The notes: generated by a model not told the origin, from the sequence alone. A stretch of DNA of 64,000 nucleotides from Squalus acanthias (GCA_030390025.1 CM059432.1:42286001-42350000); one strand, 5' to 3'; positions 6,263 to 64,000 are shown, counted from the first letter of the stretch. Program-made: numbers and translations.

Positions 6263-7199
6263 GTAGTTTGCTGATGATACAAAGCTGGGTGGGAATGTAA
6301 GTTGTGGGGAGGATGCAAGGAGGCTTCAAGGGGATATAGACAAGCTAAGTGAGTGGGCAAGAACATGGCAAATGGAATATAATGTGGAGAAATGTGAAGT
6401 TATCCACTTTGGTAGGAAAAATAGAAAAGCAGAGTATTTTTTAAATGGTGAGAGATTGAGAAATGTTGGTGTTCAGAGAGACCTGGTTGTCCTTGTACAC
6501 AAATCACTGAAAGTTAACATGCAGGTACAGCAAGCAATTAGGAAAGCAAATGGTATGTTGGCCTTTATTACAAGAGGATTTGAGTATAAGAGTAAAGACG
6601 TCTTACTGCAATTATATAGGGCCCTGGTGAGACCATACCTGGAGTATTGTGTACAGTTTTGGTCTCCTTACCTAAGGAAGGATATACTTGCCATAGAGGG
6701 AGTGCAATGAAGGTTCACCAGACTGATTCCTGGGATGGGGGGGTTGTCCTATGTGGAGAGATTGAGTAGATTGGGCCTATATTCTCTGGAGTTTAGAAGA
6801 ATGAGAAGTGATCTCATTGAAACATACAAAATTCTTACAGGGCTTGACAGGGTAGATGCAGGGAGGTTGTTTCCCCTGGCTGGGGAGTCGAGAACCAGGG
6901 GTCACAGTCTCAGAATAAGGGGTCGGCCATTCAGGACTGAAATGAGGAGAAATTTCTTCATTCAGAGGGTGGTGAACCTTTGGAATTCTTTACCCCAGAG
7001 GGCTGTGGAGGCTCAGTCGTTGAGTATATTCAAGACAGAGATCGATAGATTTTTGGATATTAAGGGAATCAAGGGATATGGGGATAGTGCAGGAACATGG
7101 AGTTGAGGTAGAAGATCTGCCATGATCTTATTGAATGGCGGAGCAGGCTTGAGGGGTCAAGTGGCCTACTCCTGCTCCTATTTCTTATGTTCTTATGTT
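6263..7199 (+). mobile_element. 5'-truncated CR1 LINE (RT C-terminal half and 3' UTR)
   Basis: Translates as FADDTKLGG...MEYNVEKCEVIHFGRKN...LEFRRMR...VVNLWNSLP, with one stop at 6708-6710 and a (TTCTTATG)n tail. Confidence 0.95.
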
Positions 7200-9230: not shown

Positions 9231-10032
9231 AGCTAAAGAGGAGCCTTTTTGAATATAACCTAAATTTCTGGAGAGCAATAGAATCAAAAATGTGTTCCCT
9301 AGATGGAGAGACAACTCACATTATATAAACTGATCAATACAAACATCCTTTGGCTAAAAATATTGAACTGTCTCATCCTGACAGCTAATTGCACGCTCTC
9401 TGTCACTGGCACGAAACCCATGATAAATAGAGTGTGATTCCTCCGTAATGTTTAAGGGTCTGAGTGCACACCACAATAACAAGTGCCTTTGTTATTTATT
9501 CAATACAGTTTTTTTGTTTCCCATTGCACAGTTTACTGCTAACCAGGCACATCTGCTCAGCACAAGTCACTGTGGAAGTGTTTTGTCCTTTCTGACTTAT
9601 GTATCCTCTTGTAGTTTGGTTGCAATGAATATGAATTCATGATTTGAATATTGACAGTGAATATTTAAATTTGGTTCAAATGTTTGCAAAAATTAACCCT
9701 GATGCATATGTTAATCCATGTAGCTGCATAATGCTTTTCTGAAAGGACGTGCCAGTTATCTGAATAAAATGATACAACTGTGCACGCCACATGACCTTGG
9801 TATTGCAATGCCAAGGAACACTGCTACAATTATGAGTCACCTTCTTGTAAGTGTGTTCCTCTTGAAGGCCAGTTCCTTGTTAAAAAAAATGCATGGGGTG
9901 TGCTCCCATCCCATCTGTTTATAAACAGTTTTTGAATTTTGGGCTTTTGTTAAATGTTTGTTGATTTTTTATTCCTGTACGAAAAAGTTCTAAACCCCAA
10001 TGCCCTTACAGCAGACTCATTTGAGGGAACGG

Positions 10033-10106
10033 TAGGGTAGTGGTAATGTCACTGGGCTAGTAATCCAGAGGCCTGGACTAATGATCCGGAGACGTGAGTT
10101 CAAATC
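10033..10106 (+). promoter_or_regulatory. Pol III type-2 internal promoter (A and B boxes) of the LINE's SINE-like head
   Basis: A-box-like TAGGGTAGTGG at 10033-10043 and B-box GTTCAAATC at 10098-10106. Confidence 0.65.
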
Positions 10107-10353
10107 CCACCACGGCAACTGGGCAATTTAAATTCAGTTAATTAAATAAATCTGGAATAAAAAGCTAGTATCAGTAATGGTAACCATGAAACTACCGGAT
10201 TGTTGTAAAAACCCATCTGGTTCACTAATGTCCTTTAGGGAAGGAAATCTGCTGTCCTTACCTGGTCTGGCCTATATGTGACTCCAGACCCACAGCAATG
10301 TGGTTGACTCTTAACTGCCCTCTGAAATGGCCTAGCACGTCACTCAGTTGTAA

Positions 10354-11220
10354 CTAACCGCTACAAAACACAATAATAAGAATGAAACCAGACGGACCAC
10401 CCGGCATCGACCTCGGCACCGGCTACAGACATGGCAACGACACATCCAGCCCAGTCGACCCTGCAATGTCCTCCTCACCAACATCTGGGGATTTGTGCCA
10501 AAATTGGGAGAGCTGTCCCATAGACTAGTCAAGCAACAGCCTGACATAGTCATACTCACAGAATCATACCTTTCAGCCAATGTCCCAGACTCCTCCATCA
10601 CCATCTCTGGGTATGTCCTGTCCCGCTGGCAGGACAGACCCACCAAAGGTGGTGGCACAGTGGTGTACAGTCAGGAGGTAGCAGCCCTGGGTGTCCTCAA
10701 CATTGACTCCAGACCCCATGGGCAAGGAAACCTCCTGCTGATTACCACCTACTGCCCTCCCTCAGCTGATGAATCAGTACTCCTCCATGTTGAACACCAC
10801 TTGGAAGAAGCACTGAGAATAGCAAGGGCACAGAATGTACTCTGTGTGGGGGACTTCAATGTCCATCACCAAGAGTGGCTCGGTAGCACCACTACTGACC
10901 GAGCTGGCCGAGTCCTGAAGGACATAGCTGCCAGTTTGGGCCTGCGACAGGTGGTGAAAGAACCAACACGAGGGGTAAAACCTACTTGACCTCGTCCTCA
11001 CCAATCTACCTGTCGCAGATGCATCAGTCCATGACAGCATTGGCAGCAGTGACCACCGCACAGTCATTGTGGAGACAAAGTCCCGTCTTCACACTGAGGA
11101 CACCCTCCATCGTGTTGTGTGGCACTACTACCGTGCTAAATGGGATAGATTCAGAACAGATCTAGCAGCTCAAAACTGGGCATCCACGAGGCGCTGTGGG
11201 CCATCAGCAGCAGCAGAATT
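10354..11220 (+). pseudogene. Apurinic-like endonuclease (APE) domain of the LINE ORF
   Basis: The frame opens after TAA 10351-10353 with an Arg-rich leader, then VLLTNIWG...PDIVILTESYL...VGDFNVHH. After a frameshift near 10975 it continues LLDLVLTN...SSDHRTV. Confidence 0.85.
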
Positions 11221-11224
11221 GTTT

Positions 11225-12078
11225 TAGAAACATAGAAACATAGAAAATAGGTACAGGAGTAGACCATTCGGTCCTTCGAGCCTGCACCGCCATTCAATGC
11301 GTTCATGGCTGAACATGCTACCTCAGTACCCCATTCCTGCTTTCTCGCCATACCCCTTGATCCCCTTAGTTGTGAGTGTTATATCTAACTCCCTTTTGAA
11401 TATATTTAGCGAACTGGCCTCAACAACCTTCTGTGGAAGAGAATTCCATAGATTCATCACTCTCTGGGTGAAGAAGTTCCTCCTCAGCTCAGTCCTAAAT
11501 GGCTTCCCCTTAATCCTTAGACTGTGACCCCTGGTTCTAGTTTTCCCTACCATTGGGAACATTCTGCCCGCATCTAATTTGTCTAAACCAGTCAGGATTT
11601 TAAATGTCTCTATAAGATCCCCCCTCATTCTTCTGAACTCCAGAGGATACAAGTTCAGTTGACCCAATCTTTCTTGATATGTCAGTCCGGCCATCCCAGG
11701 AATCAATCTAGTGAACCTTCGCTGCACTCCCTCAATAGCAAGAATGTCCTTCCTTAAGTTAGGAGACCAAAACTGCGCACAATACTCCAGGTGTGGCCTC
11801 ACCAAGGCCCTGTACAACTGTAGCATCACCTCCCTACTCCTGTACTCAAATCCCCTTGCTATGAAGGCCATCATTCCGTTTGCTTTCTTGACTGCCTGCT
11901 GCACTTGCATTCCCACCTTCAGTGACTGATGTACCATGACGCCCAGGTCTCGTTGCACGTCCCCTTTCCCTAATCTGCCACCATTCAGGTAATAGTCCGC
12001 CTCTCTATTTTTACCACCAAAGTGGATAACCTCACATTTATCCACATTGTACTTCATCTGCCATACATTTGCCCATTC
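11225..12078 (-). mobile_element. 5'-truncated CR1 LINE inserted into the SINE-headed LINE
   Basis: Open RT C-terminus EWANVWQMKYNVDKCEVIHFGGKN...KGYGEKAGMGY, with a (TTTCTATG)n tail at 11225-11245. Confidence 0.95.
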
Positions 12079-12878
12079 ACCACAATCTGTAACCTCCTGG
12101 CCCGGCATATCCCTCACTCTACCATTACCATCAAGCCAGGGGACCAACCCTAGTTCAATAAGGAGTGTAGAAGAGCATGCCAGGAGCAGCACCAGGTGTA
12201 CCTAAAAATGAGGTGCCAATCTGAGGAAGCTGCAACACAGGACTACATGCATGCTAAAAAGCGGAAGCAGCATGCTATAGATAGGGTTAAGTGATCCACA
12301 ATCAACGGATTAGATCAAAGCTCTGAGGTCCTGCCACATCCAGTCGTGAATGGTGGTGGACAATTAAACAACTAACGGGAGGAGGAGGCTCCATGAATAT
12401 CCCCATCCTCAATGATGGTGGAGCCCTGCACGTGAGTGCAAAAGACAAGACTGAAGCGTTTGCAACCATCTTCAGCCAGAAGTGCCAAGTGGATGATCCA
12501 TATTGACCTCCTCCTGAGATCTCCACCATCATAGAAGCCAGTCTTCAGCCAATTCGATTCAGTCCATGTGATATCGAGAAATGGCTGAGCGCACTGGATA
12601 CAGCAAAGGCTATGGGCCCCGACAACATCCCGGCTATCATACTGAAGACTTGTGCTCCAGAACTAGCCGCGCTTCTAGCCAAGCTGTTCCAGTACAACTA
12701 CAACACTGGCATCTACCCAACAATGTGGAAAACTGCCCAGGTATGTCTTGTCCACAAAAAGCAGGAAAAATCCAATCCGGCCAATTACCGCCCCATCAGT
12801 CTACTCTCAATCATCAGCAAAGTGATGGAAGGTGTCATCAACAGTGCTATCAAGCAGCACTTACTCACCAATAACCTG

Positions 12879-13549
12879 ATGCGGAGATGCCGGTGTTGGA
12901 CTGGGGTGGACAAAAATGAGAAGTCGCACAACACCAGGTTATAGTCCAACAGTTTTATTTGAAATCACGAGCTTTCGGAGCGCTGCTCCTTCGTCAGGTA
13001 AAGTGAAGGAATACAAATCAGCAAAGCATATATAGACAGAGAACAATGTGTAGCGTACAATGTCATACGACTACAGTAAATCTTTCTGACTTCTGACTGC
13101 CTTCCATCACACCTCGGCAGAGATACAATCAGGCCAGTCAGGAAGGCATTACATCAAAGACACAGCAAAATACAGCTAAGACAATGAGGTGGGGTCACAG
13201 GGGGTCCAACGTGTCAAATGCTGCAGTCTGTATGGTTAAGCTTTTTACTTTTTTTTAAAACTGGAAATCACATCTGTGAACAAGACAACGACGACTCGAG
13301 TCTGGATGACTCTACGCCATGTAGCGTGACATGAAACCAAGATCCCGGTTGAGGCCGTCCTCATGGGTGCGGAACTTGGCTATCAGTTTCTGCTCGATGA
13401 TTTTGCGTTGTCGTGTGTCTCGAAGGCCGCCTTGGAGAACGCTTACCCGCAGATCCGAGGCTGAATGTCCTTGACTGCTGAAGTGTTCCCCGACTGGGAG
13501 GTAACAATCCTGCCTGGCGATTGTTGCGCGGTGTCCGTTCATATGTTGT
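12879..13549 (-). mobile_element. 5'-truncated Penelope-like element (end of GIY-YIG domain plus pseudo-LTR)
   Basis: TSD CCAATAACCTG at 12868-12878 and 13550-13560. Encodes MNGHRATIARQ...EQKLIAKFRTHEDGLNRD. Highly similar to about 41822-42520. Confidence 0.92.
12965..13001 (-). ncRNA. Minimal type I hammerhead ribozyme in a Penelope pseudo-LTR
   Basis: Minus strand reads UUAC-CUGACGA-A-GGAGC-AGC-GCUCC-GAAA-GC-UC-GUGA. Confidence 0.85.
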
Positions 13550-15477
13550 CCAATAACCTGCTCACTGATGCCCAGTTTGGGTTCTGCCAAGACCACTCGG
13601 CTCCCGACCACATTGCAGCCTTGGTCCAAACATGGACAAAGGAGCTGAATTCCAGAGGTGAGGTGAGAGTGACTGCCCTTGACATCAAGGCAGCATTTAA
13701 CCGAGTGTGGCATTAAGGAGCCCTAGTAAAACTGAAGTCAATGGGAATCGGGGAAAACTCTCCACTGGCTGGAGTCATACCTAGCACAAATGAAGATGGT
13801 TGTGGTGGTTGAAGGTCAATCATCACAGCCCAAGGACATCGCTGCAGGAGTTCCTTAGGGTAGTGTCCTAGGCCCAACCATCTTCAGCTGCTTCATCAAT
13901 GACCTTCCCTCCAACATAAAGTCAGAAATGGGGATGTTCGCTGATGACTGCACAGTGTTCAGCGCCATTCACAACTCCTCAGATAATGAAGCAGTCCATG
14001 CCCGCATGCAACAAGACCTGGACGACGTTCAGTGGCTGGAGTGGCAGTGAAGTGGCAGGTAACATTCGTGCCACAGAAGTGCCAGGCAATGACTATCTCC
14101 AACAAGCGATTGTCTAACTACCGCCCCTTGACATTCAATGGCATTACCATTGCCGAATCCCCCACCATCAACATCCTGGGGGTCACCATTGACCAGAAAC
14201 TTAACTGGACCAGCCACATAAATACTGTGGCAACAAGAGCAGGTCAGAGGCTAGATATTCTGCGGCGAGTGTCTCACCTCCTGACTCCCCAAAGCATTTC
14301 CACCATCTACAAGGCACAAGTAAGGAGTGTGATGGAATACTCTCGACTTGCCTGGATGAGTGCAGCTCCAACAACACTCAAGAAGCTCAACATCATCCAG
14401 GACAAAGCAGCCCGCTTGATTGGCACCCCATCCACCACCTTAAACATTCACTCCCTCCACCACCGGCGTACGGTGGCTGCAGTGTGTACTATCTGCAAGA
14501 TGCACTGCAGCAACTCGCCAAGGCTTCTTCGGCAGCACTTCCAAACCCGCAACCTCTTCCACCTAGAAGGACAAGGGCAGCAGGCGTATGGGAACGCCAC
14601 CACCTCCAAGTTCCCCTCCAAGTCACACACCATCCTGACTTAGAAGTATATCGCTGATCTTTCATCGTCGCTGGGTCAAAATCCTGGAACTCCCTACCTA
14701 ACAGCACTGTGGGAGTACCTTCACCACATGGACTGCAGCGGTTCAAGAAGGTGTCTCTCCACCACCTTCTCAAGGGCAATTAGGGATGGGCAATAAATGC
14801 TGGCCTTGCCAGCAACGCCCAGATCCCATAAACAAATTTAAAAAAAACTCAAGAACTAAACAGGGAGTAGATGGATATGGCTTTGGTGCCGAAGCAGAGG
14901 GAGATGAAGGTGGTGCGAGTCTGACCCGTAGGTGGACCTAAGCAAGATTATGCTAGGGTTTTGCATAAATACCTACTGATTATTAGCAAAGGAAACTCCA
15001 AAAATGTATCCATCTCAACTATTCAATCCTGGCTGCTGATCTCTAGTCCCAATGGCACAAATACAATTGTATGCAATGGAGTGTTTGCTTATCTCAGTTT
15101 ATCCCTATCAGTTCAACACTTACGTCGCTCATTTTTGAAGCAGTTACATAGATTACATAAAAATTGCAGCTACGACACAGCATCAGTTGTTTTTGCTGGG
15201 ATTGTAATTTGCATCCCCTGCTCTGCAAATGAAAAAAAATCTTTTAATTTCTAGTTTTGCTTGCAACTTATTCAGTTTGAAGTTGTGTTTTCTAAATCTA
15301 AACCAAATTGTATATACCTCTCAGCATTTAAAAATAACTCAATGATGGTAAAGTCCCAATGAAGGTTAAGCTTGTGTCTAAACCATTCTCCTTTGTGGTT
15401 CAGAAGCCCAAGGCACACAACAGAAGGACTTCCTTCATTCCTTGTGCAAGATGTAGGACCAAACGGTGAGGAAATGC

Positions 15478-17320
15478 AGTGGATGCTGTCCATTTGGATT
15501 TTTTAAAAGGTGTTTGATAAGTTGCTTCTTAATAACATTAAGGTACATCCGAGGCTAATTAAAGAAGTTAAGGATAGTATTAGATAAAAAGAAGAGGCTT
15601 ATAATATTGCAAAGAATAGTTGTAAGCCTGAGGATTGCTTTTGGAGAGCTTCAGAAACCAGCAAAGGTTGACCAAAAAATTGATAAAAAGGGAGAAAATA
15701 GAATGAGAGTAAATTAGCAAGAAATACAAAAACAGATTGTAAAAGCTTCTATAAGTATGTAAAAAGGAAGAGAGTAGCAAAAAGCAAGCATTGGTCCCTT
15801 AGAGGCTGAGACAGGAGAAATTATATTGGGGAACAAGGAAAATGGCAGAGACTTTAAACAAATATTTTGTATCTGTCTGCACAGTAGAAGAAACAAAAAG
15901 TATACCAAAAATAGTGGGGAACCAAGGGGCTCATGAGGGTGAGGAGCTTAAAGTAATTAATATCAGTAGAGAAAAAGTACTTGAGAAACTAATGGGACTA
16001 AAAGCCGACAAATCCCCTGGACCTGATGGCCTACATCCTAGGGTTCTAAAAGAGGTGGCTGCAGAGATAGTGGATGCATTGGTTGTGATCTTCCAAAATT
16101 CTCTCGATTCAGGAACGGTTCCAACGGATTGGAAGGTAGTAAATGTAACCCCGCTATCCAAGAAAGGAGGGAGAGAGAAAACAGGGAACTACAGGTCAGT
16201 TAAGCTGACATCTGTCATCAGGAAAATGCTGGAATCCATTATCAAGGAACTGGTAACAGGGCACTTAGAAACTTATAATATGATTAGGCAGAGTCAACAT
16301 GGTTTTATGAAAGGGAAATCATGTTTGACAAATTTATTAGAGTTTTTTGAGGATGTAACTAGCAGGGTAGATAAAGGGGAACCAGTGGATGTAGTATATT
16401 TGGATTTCCAAAAGGCATTCGATAAGGTGCCACATAAAAGGTTGTTACGCAAGATAAGGGCAGATGGGGTTGCGGGTAAGGTATTAGCATGGATAGAGGA
16501 TTGGTTAACGGACAGAAAACAGAGAGTAGGGATAAACAGGTCATTTTCCAGTTGGCAGGCTGTAACTAGTGGGGTGCTGCAAGGATCAGTGCTTGGGTCT
16601 CAGCTATTTACAATCTATATTAATGATTTAGATGAAGGGACCGGGTGTAATGTATCCAAGTTTGCTGACAATACAAATCTAGGTGGGAAAGCAAGCTGTG
16701 AGGAGGATGCAAAGAGCCTGCAAAGGGATATAGACAGGATTAAGTGAGTGGGCAATAAGGTAGCAGATGGAGTATAATGTGGGAAAATGTGAGATTATTC
16801 ACTTTGGTAGGAAGACTATTTTTTAAATGGTGAGAAACTATTAAATGTTGGTGTTCAGAGAGATTTAGGTGTCCTAGTACAAGAAACACAGAGAATTAGC
16901 ATGCAGGTACAGCAAGCAATTAGGAATGCAAATGGCATTTTGACCTTTCTTGCTAGAGGGTTGGAGTACAAGAGTAAGGAAGTCTTCACTCAGAGGGTTG
17001 TGAATCTGTGGAATTCTCTGCCCCAAAGGGCTGTGGATGCTCAGTCGTTGAGTATATTCAAGGCTGAGATAGATAGATTTTTGGACTCTAGCGGAATCAA
17101 GGGATATGGGGATACAGGAGTTGAGGTCGAAGATCAGCCATGATCTTATTGAATGGCGGAGCTGGCTCGAGTGGCCGTATGGCCGACTCCTGCTCCTAAC
17201 TCTAATGTTCTTATGTACATGATATTAATGGGAAGGTGGCAGTATAGGCAGGAAGATTGCTAAAGGACACAAAATAGTGAATAATGGATTTTTTTTGGAC
17301 TGGAGGGGTGTAAACAATGC
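15478..17320 (+). mobile_element. Old degenerate CR1 RT fragment split by a younger CR1
   Basis: VDAVHLDF*KVFDK at 15480-15525 resumes after 17220 as HDINGKVAV...NGFFLDWRGVNN. Confidence 0.6.
15549..17214 (+). mobile_element. 5'-truncated CR1 LINE with a 301-aa RT ORF segment and an internal deletion
   Basis: TSD GTACAT at 15543-15548 and 17215-17220. Motifs KSPGPDGLHPRVLKE, QHGFMKGKSCLTNL, YLDFQKAFDKVPH and QGSVLG. The deletion junction is near 16985. Confidence 0.95.
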
Positions 17321-18880: not shown

Positions 18881-18884
18881 GAGG

Positions 18885-20130
18885 TTCTTTTTCATTTGTT
18901 CCTGGGATGTGAGTGTCGCTGGCAAGGCCAGCATTTATTGCCCATCCCTAATTGTCCTTGAGAAGGTGGTGGTGAGCCGCCTTCTTGAACCGCTCCAGTT
19001 AGTGAGGGAGTTCCAGGATTTTGACACAGTGACGATGAAGGAACAGCGATATATGTCCAAGTCAGGATGGTGCGTGACTTGGAGGGGAACTTGGAGGTGG
19101 TGGTGTTCCCATGCGCCTGATGCTCTTATCCTTCTAGGTGGTAGAGTTTGTGGGTTTGGGAGGTGCTGTCGAAGAAGCCTTGGTGAGTTGCTGCAGTGCA
19201 TCTTGTAGATGGTACACACTGCAGCCACGGTACGCTGGTGGTGGAGGGAGTGAATGTTTAATGTGGTGGATGGGGTGTCAATCAAGTGGGCTGCTTTGTC
19301 CTGGATGGTGTTGAGCCTTTTGAGTGTTGTTGGAGCTGCACTCATCTGGCTAAGTGGAGAGTATTCCATCACACTCCTGACTTGTGCCTTGTAGATGGTG
19401 GAAAGGCTTTGGGGAGTCAGGAGGTGAGACACTCGCCACAGAATACCTAGCCTCTGATCTGCTCTTGTTGCCACAGTGTTTATGTGGCTGGTCCAGTTAA
19501 GTTTCTGGTCAATGGTCACCCCCAGGATGTTGATGTTGGGGGATTTGGCGATGGTAATGTCATTGAATGTCATGGGGCGTTGGTTAGACTCTCTCTTGTT
19601 GGAGATAGTCATTGACTGGCACTTGTGTGGCGTGAATGTTACCTGCCACTTATCAGCCCAAGCCTGAATGTCATCCAGGTCTTGCTGCATGCGGGTATAG
19701 ACTGCTTCATTATCTGAGGAGTTGCGAATGGAACTGAACACTGTGCAATCATCAGCGAACATCCCCACTTCTGACCTTATGATGGAGGGAAGGTCATTGA
19801 TGAAGCAGCTGAAGATGGTTGGGCCTAGGACACTGCTCTAAGGAACTCCTGCAGCGATGTCCTGGGGCTGAGATGATTGGCGTCCAACAAGCACAACCAT
19901 CTTCCTTTGTGCTAGGTATGACTCCAGCCAGTGGAGTCTTTCCCCTGATTCCCATTAACTTCAATTTTACTAGGGCTCCTTGATGCCACACTCGGTCAAA
20001 TGCTGCCTTGATGTCAAGGCCAGTCACTCTCACCTCACCTCTGGAATTCAGCTCTTTTGTCCATATTTGGACCAAGGCTGTAATGAGGTCTGGAGCCGAG
20101 TGGTCCTGGTGCAACCCAAACTGAGCATCG
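18885..20130 (-). mobile_element. 5'-truncated copy of the SINE-headed LINE family (RT and 3' tail)
   Basis: ORF 18935-19768 begins MGMFADDCTVFSSIRNSSDNEAV. It is colinear with about 13565-14835 and has the same tail. Confidence 0.92.
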
Positions 20131-21274
20131 GGTAAAGGGGACCTGAGTGTTCAGGGGCTGGAGGAGCATCGGGGCCAGAGGGGGGAAGGCCAGGAAGGGC
20201 GGGAAGGCGATCGGGGGCCAGAGAGGGAAGGTTGGAGGCCAGAGGAGGAATCAGGGGCCTCGTGGGTGGGATGGGGGAAATCGGAGGCCTCGGCGGGGGG
20301 CTGTCCGATCGTGGGGTTTGGGTGAGGCAAGGGCGCTGGATCCAGTAGGAAGTGCAAAGGCACTTACCTCCTGGATCCAGCGGTCCTCGCCTTACTTTAG
20401 CTGGCAGGTTCCCTGAGGCCTGGGAAACCCGACCAGCCAGAGTTAAATTTGTAATGGTGGATCACCATGAGGCACGCCAACCTCATTTTAATATTTAAAT
20501 GGACGCCTGCCTCCTGGCAGCGGGTTGGCTGCCCGCCCCCGGTCCCACGTCCATTAAAACCGGATGCGGGAGAGTTGAGGCCTGTTGGGGTCGGGATTCA
20601 GTTTTTTAACACTTTAACCTCCCACCTGAACCCAACTCACCCATTTTTGGGGGTTAAAATTCTCACCTTAAATTCTCCAAAATCATACTGTAGACTATTA
20701 CCTGAAAAAGTGGTATCCTCAATTCTGTCTTTTTTTGGTGTTCCCCATGCATCAGACATGGGAAGAAAAGCAGCACCAGTCAGTGACCACAGTCCTAGAT
20801 TTGACTGACACAACCAGGGACCTTGCAATGTCAGTGAATCCCTACAGTCGGTCAACACGCTTATTCCTTCCATAAGGAAATCACTTAAAAGGAATGCTAG
20901 GATAGTGGCACACATCTGAAACAAAGCAGAAGCACCAAGGGCGGCCCTGTGCTAATTCAAGCTGCCAGCATTTACACACTAGGTAATCGAGAAAACAAAT
21001 ACCCTGCATTTGATTTAAATATTATGCTGAATATTTATTTGTCATTGGTTACAATACAGTAGGAGCACAACATAATGTGGCAATATTTGTAGAACTAAGC
21101 TTGAAAATGTAGGACAAGGTGATTGGATGCTGTTATTCTGCTCCTTTAAGAAACAGTGTAGCTGTGGCATCCTGGGAAGGCTCAGGCATCAGCACACAAA
21201 TCTTCTTTGTTACATTGCTGGCACAGTTGCTAATTCCTCATGGGTATTTCACCCTCTTACTCTGTCATGCCTTT

Positions 21275-40364: not shown

Positions 40365-41747
40365 TGGTAGAGAGAAAACGGGGAATTATAGACCAGTAAG
40401 CCTGACATCGGTAGTGGGGAAAATGCTAGAGTCCATTATAAAAGATGTAATAGCAGAGCACTTGGAAAACAGTGACAGGATCGGACAAAGTCAACATGGA
40501 TTTACAAAAGGCAAATCGTGCTTGACTAATCTCCTGGAATTTTTTGAGGATGTAACTGGTAAAATGGATAAGGGAGAACCAGTGGATGTGGTGTATTTGG
40601 ACTTTCAGAAGGCTTTCGATAAGGTCCCGCATAAGAGATTAGCGTGTAAAGTTAAGGCACATGGGATTGGGGGCAAGGTATTGACTTGGATAGAGAACTG
40701 GTTGGCAGACAGAAAGCAAAGAGTTGGAATAAATGGGTCTTTTTCCGAGTGGCAGGCAGTGACTAGTGGGATACCGCAGGGATCGGTCCTAGGACCCCAG
40801 CTATTCACAATATATATTAATGATCTGGACGATGGAATTGGATGTAATATCTCCAAGTTTGCAGACGACACAAAGCTGGGTGGGAGTGTGTGCCGTGAGG
40901 AGGATGCCGAGAAACTCCAGTATGATTTGGACAGGTTGGGAGATTGGGCAGAAGCATGGCAGATGCAATATAATGTGGATAAATGCGAGGTTATCCACTT
41001 TGGTGTCAAAAACAGGAAGGCAGATTATTATCTGAATGGCAATAGATTGGGAGAAGGGGAAGTGCAACGAGACCTGGGTGTCCTTGTGCACCAGTCGCTG
41101 AAGGTAAGCATGCAGGTGCTGCAGACAGTTAAGAAGGCAAATGGATGTCTTGCTGCAGTTGTACAGGGCCTTGGTGAGACCACATCTTGAGTATTGTGTG
41201 CAGTTTTGGTCGCCTTATCTGAGGAAGGATGTTCTTGCCATGGAGGGAGTGCAGCGAAGATTCACCAGGCTGATACCCGGGATGGCAGGAATGGCGTATG
41301 AGGAGAGATTGGGTCGATTGGGCTTATACTCACTGGAGTTTAGAAGAATGAGAGGGGATCTCATTGAAACTTATAAAATTCTAACAGGACTAGACAGACT
41401 AGATGCGGGAAGGATGTTCCCGATGGCTGGGGAGTCCAGAACCAGGGGTCACAGTCTAAGGATAAGGGGTAAGCCATTTAGGACTGAGATGAGGAGGAAT
41501 TTCTTCACCCAGAGAGTGGTGAACCTGTGGAATTCTCTACCACAGAAGGCAGTTGAGGCCAATTCATTAAATATATTCAAGAAGGAGTTAGATATATTTC
41601 TTAAGGCTAAAGGGATCAAGGGATATGGAGAGAAGGCAGGGACAGGGTACTGAATTTGGATGATCAGCCATGATCTCATTGAATGGCGGAGCAGGCTCGA
41701 GGGGCTGAATGGCCTTCTCCTGCTCCTATCTTCTATGTTTCTATGTT
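40365..41747 (+). mobile_element. 5'-truncated CR1 LINE (RT and 3' UTR)
   Basis: ORFs 40333-41190 and 41141-41653 give NYRPVSLTSVVGK, FADDTKLGG and LEFRRMRGDL. There is a small deletion near 41145 and a TTCTATGT tail. Confidence 0.95.
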
Positions 41748-45342: not shown

Positions 45343-46050
45343 GATTAGTGGATGGTATCCTAGAGTTTATAGCAACCCAAAGGTTGTAAATTCATAATCC
45401 TGCCATGCAAGCTGTGAAATTGAATTCAATAAATCTGCTAATTTGTGGGCTATCTCCAGAAAATGATGAGGAAAGCTGCTGGATTGTTGTAAAAAAAAAC
45501 AACAGGTCTACTACTAATGTCCTTCAGGGAAGCAAACCTATCACCCTACCTAGTCTGGCCTATATCATAGAATCATAGAATGATACAGCACAGAAGGAGA
45601 CAATTCGGCCGAGCAGGCCTGTGCCGGCTCTTTGGAAGATCTATCCGATTAGTCCCACTCCCTTGCTCTATCCCCATAGCCCTGCAAATTTTCTCTCTTC
45701 AAGTATTTATTCAATTTCCTTTTGAAAATTATTATTGAATCTGCTTCCACCACCCTTTCAGGCAGTGCAGTCCAGATCATAACAACTCGCTGTGTTAAAA
45801 AAATTCTCACTTCTCCTCTAGTTCTTTTGCCAATGACCTTAAATCTGTGTCCTCTGGTGACTGACCCTTCTGCCACTGGAAACAGTTTCTCCTTATTTGC
45901 TGTATTAAAACCCTGCGTGATTTTGAACACCTCTATCAAATCTCCCCTTAATCTTCTCTCCTCTAAGGAGAACAACCCCATGAGGTTGACTCTTAATTGC
46001 CCGCAAGGCAACCAGGAATGGGCAATAAATACTGCCTTGCCAGTGTTGCC
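45343..46050 (+). mobile_element. SINE made of the head and tail of the 10023-14846 LINE, split by a CR1 fragment
   Basis: Shares GGATTGTTGTAAAAA, ACTAATGTCCTT, TCTGGCCTATAT and GGTTGACTCTTAA with 10190-10320, then joins directly to the GGGCAATAAAT...CCTTGCCAG tail. Confidence 0.8.
45566..45980 (-). mobile_element. CR1 3' fragment with a (ATTCTATG)n tail
   Basis: Translates as GLFSLEERRLRGDLIEVFKI...TRGHRFKVIGKR...VVMIWTALPERVV. Confidence 0.9.
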
Positions 46051-46189
46051 CACATCTCAAGAACAAATTTAATAAAATGATAAGCTAACAATGTTGGGAC
46101 ATTTTTTATGAGGAAATCTTTTATGTATTTTCTTTTATTCTCACTAATTTTCTCCAGTGATGGCAGTCTATTTGATGATGGGACCATCA

Positions 46190-63730: not shown

Positions 63731-63734
63731 TTTT

Positions 63735-63813
63735 TTTTTATTATTCATTCATGGGATGTGGACATCGCTGGCAAGGCCAGCATTTATTGCCCATCCCTAG
63801 TTGCCCTTGAGAA
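63735..63813 (-). mobile_element. Isolated 3' tail of the SINE-headed LINE / SINE family
   Basis: Reverse complement of TTCTCAAGGGCAA...GGGCAATAAATGCTGGCCTTGCCAGCGA...CATCCCATGAATGAAT. Confidence 0.85.
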
Positions 63814-64000
63814 GGCATTGCATGCCAATTGATGTCACGATCAGCAGAATTTACATGTGGGCGGCGAGCGCAGGCAACGGCAGCGCTAACGACCTCCCCA
63901 AAATGGCGGCCGCTGCGTTCTGCACCAGAAGGGGGCGGAAGCGAGGTGGCCGCCATTTCTTCAGCAAAACCGGCCTTGACGGCCGGTGCTAGACCTCCGA

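What the first reader, a model, noticed from the sequence alone, without database searches (positions are those of the whole stretch)
10023..14846. Candidate Pol III-driven autonomous LINE: tRNA-derived SINE head fused to a single APE-RT ORF
Seen: an A-box-like (10033) and B-box (10098) SINE head runs directly into an APE-RT frame. There is no ORF1 and no room for one, and the element ends in a tail shared with a short SINE. Established: LINEs are normally Pol II transcripts, SINEs are non-coding Pol III transcripts, and SINE/LINE partners usually share only the 3' tail. Inference: here the SINE head may be the LINE's own 5' UTR and promoter, making a protein-coding retrotransposon with a tRNA-derived Pol III promoter. 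This copy is itself inactive.
Basis: partly seen in the sequence, partly recalled or inferred. Interest (0 to 1): 0.85.

Follow-up and report, generated by a model that had tools for sequence, protein, structure and literature searches.

The report
LINE retrotransposon carrying a SINE head
This genome holds well over a thousand copies of a compact protein-coding jumping gene (a LINE) whose front end is the same tRNA-like promoter piece carried by its small non-coding partner (a SINE), so a protein-coding retrotransposon may be started by RNA polymerase III, which can be tested but is not shown here.

Summary
The window copy (10025-14847, +) is a decayed member of a ~3.25-kb single-ORF APE+RT LINE. 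It is interrupted by two nested insertions (11226-12084, 12879-13549).

The head-to-ORF junction recurs at 39 other scored loci, out of 4731 candidates. By exact pattern it occurs at 1298 places. In 24 aligned copies the upstream flanks are unrelated, and 20 of them begin with the same GGGAAY, 8 nt before a consensus A box. No headless full-length class was seen. Head and ORF parts are equally diverged.

The abundant short SINE equals the LINE minus its ORF.

There is no ORF1. A conserved 48-codon mini-ORF overlaps the APE frame, which has no AUG of its own.

Pol III drive is permitted but not shown. The sense strand lacks T4 runs, but this is not significant (P about 0.15). I put Pol III initiation of the full-length RNA at about 0.4. 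Nine searches of the held papers found no tRNA-headed autonomous LINE.

Verdict: a new variant of a known kind, and interesting.

The parts
10025..10108 (+). tRNA-derived head: element start GGGAAC (10025), A box 10033-10043, B box 10096-10108
   Evidence: Sequence read. Rfam tRNA match at 20.4 bits, E 0.14, model positions 7-64. The same start is seen in 20 of 24 aligned copies with unrelated flanks.
10109..10381 (+). SINE-type body that serves as the rest of the LINE 5' UTR; it holds most of the 7-10 upstream ATGs counted over the whole 5' UTR from 10025
   Evidence: It aligns with short SINE copies L066-L074 up to about 10370.
10382..10528 (+). Conserved mini-ORF (48 codons plus stop) in the frame one base off the APE frame
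   Evidence: The ATG is kept in 19 of 24 copies. The ORF is 48 codons in 12 of these and 46 in 2. The frame offset is 2 in 14 of the 16 copies where it could be read.
10354..11225 (+). APE-RT frame, first piece (APE domain); no in-frame ATG before the domain
   Evidence: Pfam Exo_endo_phos_2 and Exo_endo_phos on the homologous part of L040.
11226..12084 (-). Nested insertion 1: 3' fragment of a different LINE family, antisense; not part of the element
   Evidence: Absent from sister copies, where 11225 abuts 12085. 22% amino-acid identity to residues 708-949 of the family protein.
12085..12878 (+). APE-RT frame, second piece (linker and start of RT)
12879..13549 (.). Nested insertion 2: unidentified repeat; not part of the element
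   Evidence: Absent from sister copies, where 12878 abuts 13550. No Pfam family above threshold for its longest frame.
13550..14783 (+). APE-RT frame, third piece (RT with the FADD motif, and the C-terminal region). The family stop, TAG at 14781-14783, lies inside the SINE-shared tail.
   Evidence: the L064 frame ends ...HLLKGN*. RVT_1 at 9.3e-40.
14731..14847 (+). 3' part shared with the SINE. The long SINE form shares from about 14731 and the common forms from about 14743. It contains a hairpin at 14783-14827, AATAAA at 14792-14797, a T run of variable length, and an A run at 14840-14847.
   Evidence: Hairpin energy -24.4 kcal/mol, z -3.68, 0 of 200 shuffles as stable.

Best explanation
SHOWN.
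- The window copy belongs to a high-copy family of compact (~3.25 kb) autonomous-type LINEs.
- Each has one long APE+RT frame, no ORF1, and a 3' UTR of about 65 nt.
- The first ~345 nt are a complete tRNA-derived SINE head plus body.
- Head, ORF and tail moved together as one RNA. Copies lie at unrelated loci, start at the same base, are 5'-truncated at varied points including inside the head, and show equal divergence in head and ORF.
- The abundant ~450-nt SINE of this genome has the same head and body joined to the last 60-115 nt of the LINE. It is the ORF-less (bipartite) partner of this LINE.

INFERRED.
- The head is the family's internal promoter and fixes the RNA start 8 nt before the A box. 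Otherwise the exact 5' end could not have been kept through several LINE subfamilies.
- My committed reading is that TFIIIC and Pol III start on LINE copies just as on the SINE, and that Pol III runs through a body free of T4 terminators. The resulting full-length RNA is recognised through the shared 3' hairpin. The LINE would then behave as a giant SINE that carries its own enzyme gene.
- Protein would have to come from an unconventional start. There are 7-10 upstream AUGs, the APE frame has no AUG, and a 48-codon overlapping mini-ORF is present.

ODDS.
- The head is the LINE's own 5' end: 0.95.
- The head acts as an internal promoter that fixes the start: 0.8.
- Pol III makes the full-length retrotransposed RNA: about 0.4. 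The confidence value refers to this last claim.
For: - Junction 10250-10550: 39 other scored loci at 94-96% identity, out of 4731 candidates.
- 5' ends: of 29 such loci, 17 begin within the first 36 nt of the head (10 of them at 10024-10025). The other 12 are truncated at 10139-10245.
- Head hits: 12 of 12 fetched run on into the ORF.
- Flanks and start: 24 aligned copies have unrelated upstream flanks, and 20 of 24 start with GGGAAY.
- Continuity: sister copies carry head, ORF and tail uninterrupted over 3190-3304 nt.
- Pattern counts: body motif to ATG motif gives 1298 hits (control 0), with several 5' UTR subfamilies. The ATG motif alone gives 2235 hits. So 58% are preceded by an intact 14-mer. 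That is at or above my arithmetic expectation (0.94-0.95 to the 14th power, 0.42-0.49) if all copies are preceded by the body.
- Age: pairwise identity over 36 pairs is 94.5% for the head and body and 94.7% for the rest.
- SINE partner: SINE-type junctions give 1808 exact hits. SINE copies share the head and body. The long form breaks about 13 nt before the ATG and about 50 nt before the stop.
- Terminators: 0 T4 runs in 6 of 8 full-length copies against 4.1-4.5 expected from composition. Four fragments of other LINE families in the window have 9 T4 runs in 3.1 kb.
- Fold: the head does not fold as a cloverleaf (z -0.7 and -1.6). This fits a DNA-level promoter better than an RNA mimic.
- 3' end: AATAAA, then a T run, then an A run. 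This resembles polyadenylated Pol III SINEs (PMC8466645, abstract only).
Against: - The lack of T4 runs is not significant under fair controls. Dinucleotide shuffles expect 1.7-2.1 runs (P 0.09-0.15 for zero). Synonymous-codon permutation expects 1.6 (P 0.14-0.16). The comparison LINE fragments are older and richer in T.
- The 3' T run is usually short. In my hand tally of 50 distinct places among the first 100 rows, T1 occurred 22 times, T2 9, T3 11, T4 4, T5 1, and 3 were odd. Most copies therefore carry no terminator of their own.
- None of the papers I read describes a Pol III transcript of this length or a Pol III-made retrotransposon mRNA. Kojima states that LINEs are Pol II transcripts and that SINE length is limited by Pol III (PMC10886601 section 4.1 and introduction passages; PMC5786205 discussion).
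- Uncapped Pol III RNA is a poor mRNA (recalled knowledge).
- No fully intact full-length copy was seen. The best was L064, 962 codons with one stop.
- TSDs are short or absent, so the element ends rest on multi-copy alignment alone.
Confidence: 0.4

Rival explanations
1. Pol II element with a captured SINE front. The LINE lineage once acquired the SINE head and body, for example by a template switch of its RT onto a SINE-type RNA. It now uses that ~345 nt as an ordinary internal Pol II promoter and 5' UTR. The A and B boxes would be relics, or would help only indirectly through TFIIIC binding. The RNA would be capped and polyadenylated after the AATAAA in the tail.
For: - All LINEs in the papers I read are taken to be Pol II transcripts with internal 5' promoters (PMC5786205 discussion; PMC10886601 introduction).
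- AATAAA lies about 40 nt before the terminal A run in LINE and SINE copies alike.
- The absence of T4 runs is within chance.
- A 2.9-kb ORF has to be translated.
Against: - The start base GGGAAC, 8 nt before the A box, is where a type-2 Pol III promoter would start transcription. It does not resemble an initiator element (motif recalled).
- The boxes are consensus-grade in the LINE copies.
- The 7-10 upstream AUGs and the lack of an AUG in the APE frame are also bad for a capped, scanned mRNA.
Confidence: 0.38
2. RNA-processing head. The LINE is transcribed as part of longer host or read-through RNAs. The tRNA-like head is then cut at its 5' side (RNase P-like). This would give the uniform start, much as HDV-like ribozymes do at the 5' ends of R2, RTE and L1Tc.
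For: - 5' self-cleaving ribozymes are reported for several LINE clades (PMC5786205 discussion, citing Ruminski 2011 and others).
- The 5' end is uniform.
Against: - The Rfam tRNA match covers model positions 7-64 only, so there is no acceptor stem.
- The first 100 nt do not fold as a cloverleaf and are no more stable than shuffles (z -0.74 and -1.55).
Confidence: 0.05
3. Chance juxtaposition at this locus: a LINE landed in or beside a SINE.
For: Nested insertions are common here; two interrupt this very copy.
Against: - The same junction is found at 39 other scored loci and 1298 exact-pattern places, with unrelated flanks.
- Head and ORF show equal divergence.
Confidence: 0.01
4. Site-specific LINE that always inserts at one position of the SINE. 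The head and tail would then belong to the target SINE, not to the LINE.
For: The SINE equals the head plus the tail, so a LINE sitting between them would look like this.
Against: - The long frame runs without a break into the shared tail, with no separate LINE 3' UTR or A run before it.
- 5'-truncated copies are not preceded by the rest of the head. They meet unrelated flanks, or in L065 another copy's tail. This holds for 12 of 29 loci, for L063 and L065, and for window 18881-20135.
Confidence: 0.02
5. Recurrent chimeras of the U6/L1 kind. Each copy would arise anew by RT switching from the LINE RNA to a SINE RNA, so the fusion would not be heritable.
For: Template switching and RNA ligation do create small-RNA/LINE chimeras (PMC6789731, abstract in a search listing only).
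Against: - The junction is constant on both sides in 1298 exact-pattern copies and is kept across several 5' UTR subfamilies.
- A SINE RNA would bring its own tail into the joint, and none is seen.
Confidence: 0.03

Closest known systems
HE1 SINE with HER1 LINE of sharks and rays (Ogiwara et al. 1999; seen only as a table row and reference in PMC3747384; neither the 1999 paper nor the 2002 V-SINE paper is held)
   Same: A tRNA-derived SINE of elasmobranchs paired with a LINE through a common 3' tail. The nearest named proteins to this LINE come from a shark and a ray.
   Different: Identity with HE1/HER1 could not be tested, because no sequences were on hand. What I could read describes a shared 3' tail only. 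It does not mention a shared tRNA head on the LINE.
Bipartite non-autonomous LINE derivatives and the SINEs built on them (RIME/ingi, NARTc/L1Tc, Vingi-1_EE derivatives, Bov-A/Bov-B, WALLSI; Kojima 2018, PMC5786205)
   Same: The short element shares both the 5' and the 3' end with a compact single-ORF LINE of about 3.1-3.9 kb. The deletion removes essentially the ORF.
   Different: In those cases the LINE 5' end is not tRNA-derived, and any tRNA head sits only on the SINE, upstream of the LINE-derived 5' piece. Here the coding element itself begins with the tRNA head. The clade of this LINE was not resolved.
tRNA-derived SINEs, including those with AATAAA, a terminator and an A tail whose Pol III RNA is polyadenylated (PMC8466645, abstract)
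   Same: A and B boxes, a start a few bases before the A box, and AATAAA, a T run and an A run at the 3' end.
   Different: SINEs are 100-700 nt and non-coding (PMC10886601 section 4.1). This element is 3.25 kb and encodes APE+RT.
Cassandra, Helenus and Ajax (TRIMp3): LTR retrotransposons with 5S- or tRNA-derived Pol III promoters (PMC10886601)
   Same: A retrotransposon of another class that has taken a small-RNA gene promoter into its own terminal region.
   Different: Those are short (311-1263 nt) and non-autonomous. None encodes its own enzymes.
U6/L1 chimeric retrocopies (PMC6789731, abstract only)
   Same: A Pol III small-RNA sequence joined 5' to a LINE sequence.
   Different: Those are one-off products with variable L1 breakpoints. 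Here the fusion is a heritable family structure.

Membership tests
APE-type autonomous LINE (non-LTR retrotransposon) | APE endonuclease domain | tested here: met
   Exo_endo_phos_2 at 3.4e-13 and Exo_endo_phos at 1.1e-11 on the L040 piece. The same frame is present in the window at 10354-11225.
APE-type autonomous LINE (non-LTR retrotransposon) | Reverse transcriptase domain with a YXDD-type motif | tested here: met
   RVT_1 at 9.3e-40. FADD is visible in the translations.
APE-type autonomous LINE (non-LTR retrotransposon) | Dispersed copies with a common 3' end and variable 5' truncation | tested here: met
APE-type autonomous LINE (non-LTR retrotransposon) | An intact, potentially active copy | tested here: not met
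   The best copy seen was L064: full length, 962 codons, one stop. Only 74 of 655,678 candidates were scored, so an intact copy is not excluded.
APE-type autonomous LINE (non-LTR retrotransposon) | Target-site duplications around the whole unit | tested here: inconclusive
   No consistent TSD in 10 full-length copies. L034 has one 16-nt direct repeat, displaced 21 nt beyond the A run.
tRNA-derived SINE (SINE2/tRNA) | tRNA-related head with A and B boxes | tested here: met
   The Rfam scores (20-26 bits) stay below the gathering score of 29.
tRNA-derived SINE (SINE2/tRNA) | Short (100-700 nt) and non-coding | tested here: not met
   3190-3304 nt with an APE+RT frame of about 960 codons. The separate ~450-nt partner does meet this feature.
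Bipartite LINE/short-element pair (RTE, Vingi or Ingi type) | The short element consists of the LINE's 5' and 3' ends | tested here: met
Bipartite LINE/short-element pair (RTE, Vingi or Ingi type) | RT phylogeny places the LINE in RTE, Vingi or Ingi | not testable with these tools
   No labelled reference LINE proteins were on hand. The best homologues are unnamed and at most 43% identical. The Atlas names are generic.
Pol III type-2 transcription unit | Internal A and B boxes, with the start a few bases upstream of the A box | tested here: met
   The A box is at element positions 9-19 and the B box at 72-84. The 5' end is uniform.
Pol III type-2 transcription unit | No T4 or longer terminator inside the unit | tested here: inconclusive
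   0 T4 runs in 6 of 8 full-length copies, but P is 0.09-0.16 under dinucleotide and synonymous-codon controls.
Pol III type-2 transcription unit | T-run terminator at the 3' end | tested here: inconclusive
   The T run before the A run varies from 1 to 5. It reaches T4 or more in 5 of the 50 places tallied by hand and in 3 of 18 aligned LINE 3' ends.
Pol III type-2 transcription unit | Pol III or TFIIIC occupancy; uncapped transcript; alpha-amanitin profile | not testable with these tools
   No RNA holder is on record, and only contigs of guessed RNA runs could be laid.
U6/L1-type chimeric retrocopy | Independent events with variable LINE-side breakpoints | tested here: not met
   The junction is constant in 1298 exact-pattern copies and across subfamilies.

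The most novel reading that the evidence does not exclude
An autonomous LINE lineage of cartilaginous fishes is transcribed over its whole 3.25 kb by RNA polymerase III from a tRNA-derived internal promoter. This would be a protein-coding Pol III transcript and, in effect, a SINE that carries its own reverse transcriptase. Its ORF-less SINE partner would arise from it by simple deletion. The enzyme would be translated from an uncapped RNA by a non-AUG or frameshift route.
Probability: 0.4. Interest if true: 0.92.

Novelty: new variant of a known kind. Interest (0 to 1): 0.74.

Why it matters
The textbook division is that LINEs are Pol II-made and coding, and SINEs are Pol III-made and non-coding. 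That division also underlies the usual account of how SINEs are born: a small-RNA head is added to a LINE tail.

Here one head serves both the coding and the non-coding element, and the SINE is simply the LINE without its ORF. This gives a concrete, high-copy natural system for several questions.

- Can Pol III make a multi-kilobase, translatable retrotransposon RNA?
- How does a LINE keep a portable promoter?
- Can SINEs arise by deletion from a tRNA-headed LINE, rather than by head capture?

Even if Pol II turns out to be the enzyme, a LINE that has adopted a SINE front as its 5' UTR through several subfamilies is an unreported arrangement in the literature I could search.

Tried and rejected
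- **ARAGORN** found no tRNA in the window. The head is only tRNA-related.
- **TSD search** around 10 full-length copies gave no consistent duplication.
- **RNA evidence.** No RNA holder is listed for 10023-11225. I laid the contigs of four runs guessed to be RNA, from four coded organisms.
  - The contigs are short and fragmented. None listed spans the stretch, and no molecule starts were reported.
  - Both the head and the ORF are covered. The SINE form shows as loose ends at 10349-10352.
  - Places 10366-10377 are covered by a single contig in X7 and in X12, but at depth above 1000 in X1 and X5.
  - This says nothing firm about expression, or about which species hold the junction.
- **Clade assignment failed.** The homologues are unnamed and at most 43% identical, and the Atlas names are generic. 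The papers on HER1 and on Vingi were not held.
- **Consensus fold of the tails** was spoiled by two badly aligned rows. Only the single-sequence hairpin is reported.
- **Splicing as the origin of the SINE** was considered and dropped. The observed SINE joints do not match a GT..AG excision of the LINE sequence.
- **Earlier findings of this scan** held nothing on this element.
- **Literature.** Nine searches found no autonomous LINE with a tRNA-derived head. Subscription papers and Repbase/Dfam entries were not searchable, so prior description there is not excluded.
- **Pfam** gave nothing for the frames of the two nested insertions.

Full report
**What is in the window.**
- At 10025 the sequence GGGAACGG opens an 84-nt tRNA-related stretch. 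It has an A box (10033-10043) and a B box (10096-10108).
- Rfam's tRNA model matches 10032-10111 at 20.4 bits, E 0.14. The match covers model positions 7-64, so there is no acceptor stem. The score is below the gathering score, as is usual for SINE heads. ARAGORN calls no tRNA.
- A SINE-type body follows, to about 10370.
- A long frame open from 10354 then encodes an APE endonuclease and a reverse transcriptase. Pfam gives Exo_endo_phos_2 at 3.4e-13 and RVT_1 at 9.3e-40 on a sister copy.
- The element ends in a conserved tail with a hairpin, AATAAA, a short T run and an A run at 14840-14847.

**The window copy is broken.**
- In sister copies 11225 abuts 12085, and 12878 abuts 13550. So 11226-12084 (an antisense fragment of another LINE) and 12879-13549 (an unidentified repeat) are nested insertions.
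- The rest of the frame falls into several tblastn pieces in different frames.
- Uninterrupted family members are 3190-3304 nt long.

**The junction is a family feature.**
- A 301-nt query across the head-to-ORF junction matched 40 of 40 scored places in the window's own 3.7-Gb genome. That is the window plus 39 others, at 94-96% identity, out of 4731 first-look candidates.
- Among the 29 other loci fetched, 17 begin within the first 36 nt of the head, 10 of them at 10024-10025. The other 12 are 5'-truncated at 10139-10245.
- A search with the head alone gave 40 further places. All 12 that I fetched continue into the ORF and start at 10023-10028.
- In an alignment of 24 copies the upstream flanks are unrelated, and 20 of 24 start with GGGAAY.
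- An exact pattern 'body motif ... ATG motif' has 1298 hits against 0 for the reversed control. The hits fall into several 5' UTR subfamilies, all attached to the SINE-type body.
- The ATG motif alone has 2235 hits. So 58% are preceded by an intact 14-mer. That is at or above the 42-49% I expect by arithmetic (0.94-0.95 to the 14th power) if every copy had the body. There is no sign of a headless full-length class.
- Pairwise identity among nine long copies is 94.5% in the head and body and 94.7% in the rest (36 pairs). The two parts are therefore the same age within each copy.

**Relation to the SINE.**
- A pattern 'body motif ... tail motif' has 1808 exact hits against 0 for the control.
- Nine fetched copies show a ~450-nt element with the same head and body as the LINE. 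It is joined directly to the last 60-115 nt of the LINE.
- In the long forms the SINE follows the LINE 5' UTR to about 13 nt before the ATG. It resumes about 50 nt before the stop codon. Shorter forms have lost a little more on both sides.
- The family ORF ends (...HLLKGN, then the stop) inside the shared tail, as seen in L064. The SINE tail is therefore the last codons plus a 3' UTR of about 65 nt.
- That tail folds into a hairpin of -24.4 kcal/mol (z -3.68; 0 of 200 shuffles as stable). It is the likely handle by which the RT recognises both RNAs. That role is an inference from what is known of LINE/SINE pairs with a common tail.
- The SINE is therefore the ORF-less, two-ended partner of this LINE. 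The same holds for RIME/ingi and for RTE or Vingi derivatives (PMC5786205, abstract, discussion and passages read). The difference here is that the coding element itself carries the tRNA head.
- Whether the LINE captured the head or the SINE arose by deletion cannot be decided from one genome.

**Rivals about structure.**
- *A site-specific LINE inside a SINE.* The frame runs unbroken into the tail, with no separate LINE 3' end. Truncated copies are not preceded by the rest of the head. They meet unrelated DNA, or in L065 another copy's tail. This rival is excluded.
- *Recurrent U6/L1-like chimeras.* The joint is constant, and it is kept across subfamilies. This rival does not fit.

**Coding layout.**
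- There is no ORF1. The 357 nt before the conserved ATG hold 7-10 other ATGs and no long frame.
- The ATG (window 10382) is kept in 19 of 24 copies. It opens a mini-ORF of 48 codons in 12 copies and 46 codons in 2.
- That mini-ORF lies one base off the APE frame in 14 of the 16 copies where the offset could be read. The APE frame has no ATG before the domain.
- So the enzyme needs a frameshift, a non-AUG start or re-initiation.
- I recall, but could not check, that RTE-1 has a similar 43-codon overlapping first ORF.
- In L051 a 20-nt deletion puts the ATG in frame with the APE.

**Which polymerase?**

Points that fit Pol III:
- The A and B boxes are consensus-grade.
- The start is uniform, at a G 8 nt before the A box.
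- The head and body match those of a SINE that is Pol III-made by class.
- The head does not fold as a cloverleaf. That points to a DNA-level promoter rather than an RNA mimic.
- The 3.25-kb sense strand has no T4 run in 6 of 8 full-length copies (9 of 15 elements). Composition predicts 4.1-4.5 runs.
- Four fragments of other LINE families in the window have 9 T4 runs in 3.1 kb.

Points that weaken this:
- Dinucleotide shuffles expect only 1.7-2.1 T4 runs (P 0.09-0.15). Synonymous-codon permutation expects 1.6 (P 0.14-0.16). The terminator-free body is therefore permissive, not evidential.
- The T run before the terminal A run varies. In my hand tally of 50 places it was T1 in 22, T2 in 9, T3 in 11, T4 in 4, T5 in 1, and odd in 3. 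This neither proves nor excludes termination there.
- No RNA run is on record. Contigs of four runs guessed to be RNA were too fragmented to show starts.

I therefore put Pol III synthesis of the full-length RNA at about 0.4. An ordinary Pol II reading with a captured SINE front stands at about 0.38. An RNA-processing role of the head stands at about 0.05.

**Literature.**
- Nine searches of the held library returned no autonomous LINE with a tRNA-derived head.
- Kojima writes that LINEs are Pol II transcripts, that 'SINEs cannot encode a protein', and that SINE length is limited by Pol III (PMC5786205 discussion; PMC10886601 introduction passages and section 4.1).
- The elasmobranch pair HE1/HER1 is the obvious candidate identity. 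I saw it only as a table row in PMC3747384, and the original papers are not held.
- Repbase and Dfam could not be consulted.

**Verdict.**
- The structural reading is supported at about 0.95.
- The Pol III reading is open but serious.
- This is a new variant of a known kind, and a good experimental system.

Noticed in passing
window 18881-20135 (-): A second, 5'-truncated copy of the same LINE family. It covers residues 560-962 at 82-91% amino-acid identity, and its tail is 79% identical in DNA. It has no T4 run on its sense strand.
   Followed up: partly
window 45473-46077 (+) and 63732-63815 (-): An old copy of the partner SINE, split by its own nested insertion (about 45567-45975), and a tail-only fragment of the SINE or LINE.
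   Followed up: partly
window 6267-7019 (+), 15845-16744 (+), 40369-41139 (+): RT fragments of three other LINE families, 23-32% identical in protein to this family. Together with nested insertion 1 (window 11392-12099, -), these sense strands carry 9 T4 runs in 3.1 kb.
   Followed up: partly
window 12879-13549: Nested insertion 2 is an unidentified repeat. Its longest antisense frame has no Pfam family above threshold. From memory it resembles the endonuclease end of a Penelope-like element; this was not tested.
   Followed up: partly
family 3' ends (window 14837-14847; first 100 rows): The T run between ...AAACRAA and the terminal A run varies from 1 to 5 among copies. The cause could be Pol III termination within a T run followed by A-addition, or RT slippage. 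This is unexplained.
   Followed up: partly
L034 (own genome), 5' flank and 21 nt beyond the A run: A 16-nt direct repeat, GGAGTTTGAACACCAT, lies just before the head and again 21 nt downstream of the A run. It may be a target-site duplication enclosing a short 3' transduction.
   Followed up: no
L036, 40 nt upstream of the element start: The 5' flank itself holds a head-like fragment (…AACGGTAGCATAGTGGTAAC…) directly before the full head. This could be a partial head duplication, or an insertion next to another copy.
   Followed up: no
L051, element positions about 375-395: A 20-nt deletion puts the conserved ATG in frame with the APE domain in this one copy.
   Followed up: no
runs X7 and X12 against X1 and X5, window 10366-10377: In two coded organisms the last bases of the 5' UTR before the ATG are covered by a single contig. 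In two others they are covered at depth above 1000. In X7 and X12 the SINE form is the most frequent loose end listed at 10349-10352. This may mean the head-to-ORF joint is lineage-restricted, or it may only reflect divergence and fragmented contigs.
   Followed up: no
rows P0028 and P0122: Pieces of this LINE protein appear inside annotated host proteins of a sevengill shark (named aldo-keto reductase-like; 71% identity over 32% of the query) and of a manta ray (82% identity over 14%). These are probably LINE fragments swept into gene models.
   Followed up: no
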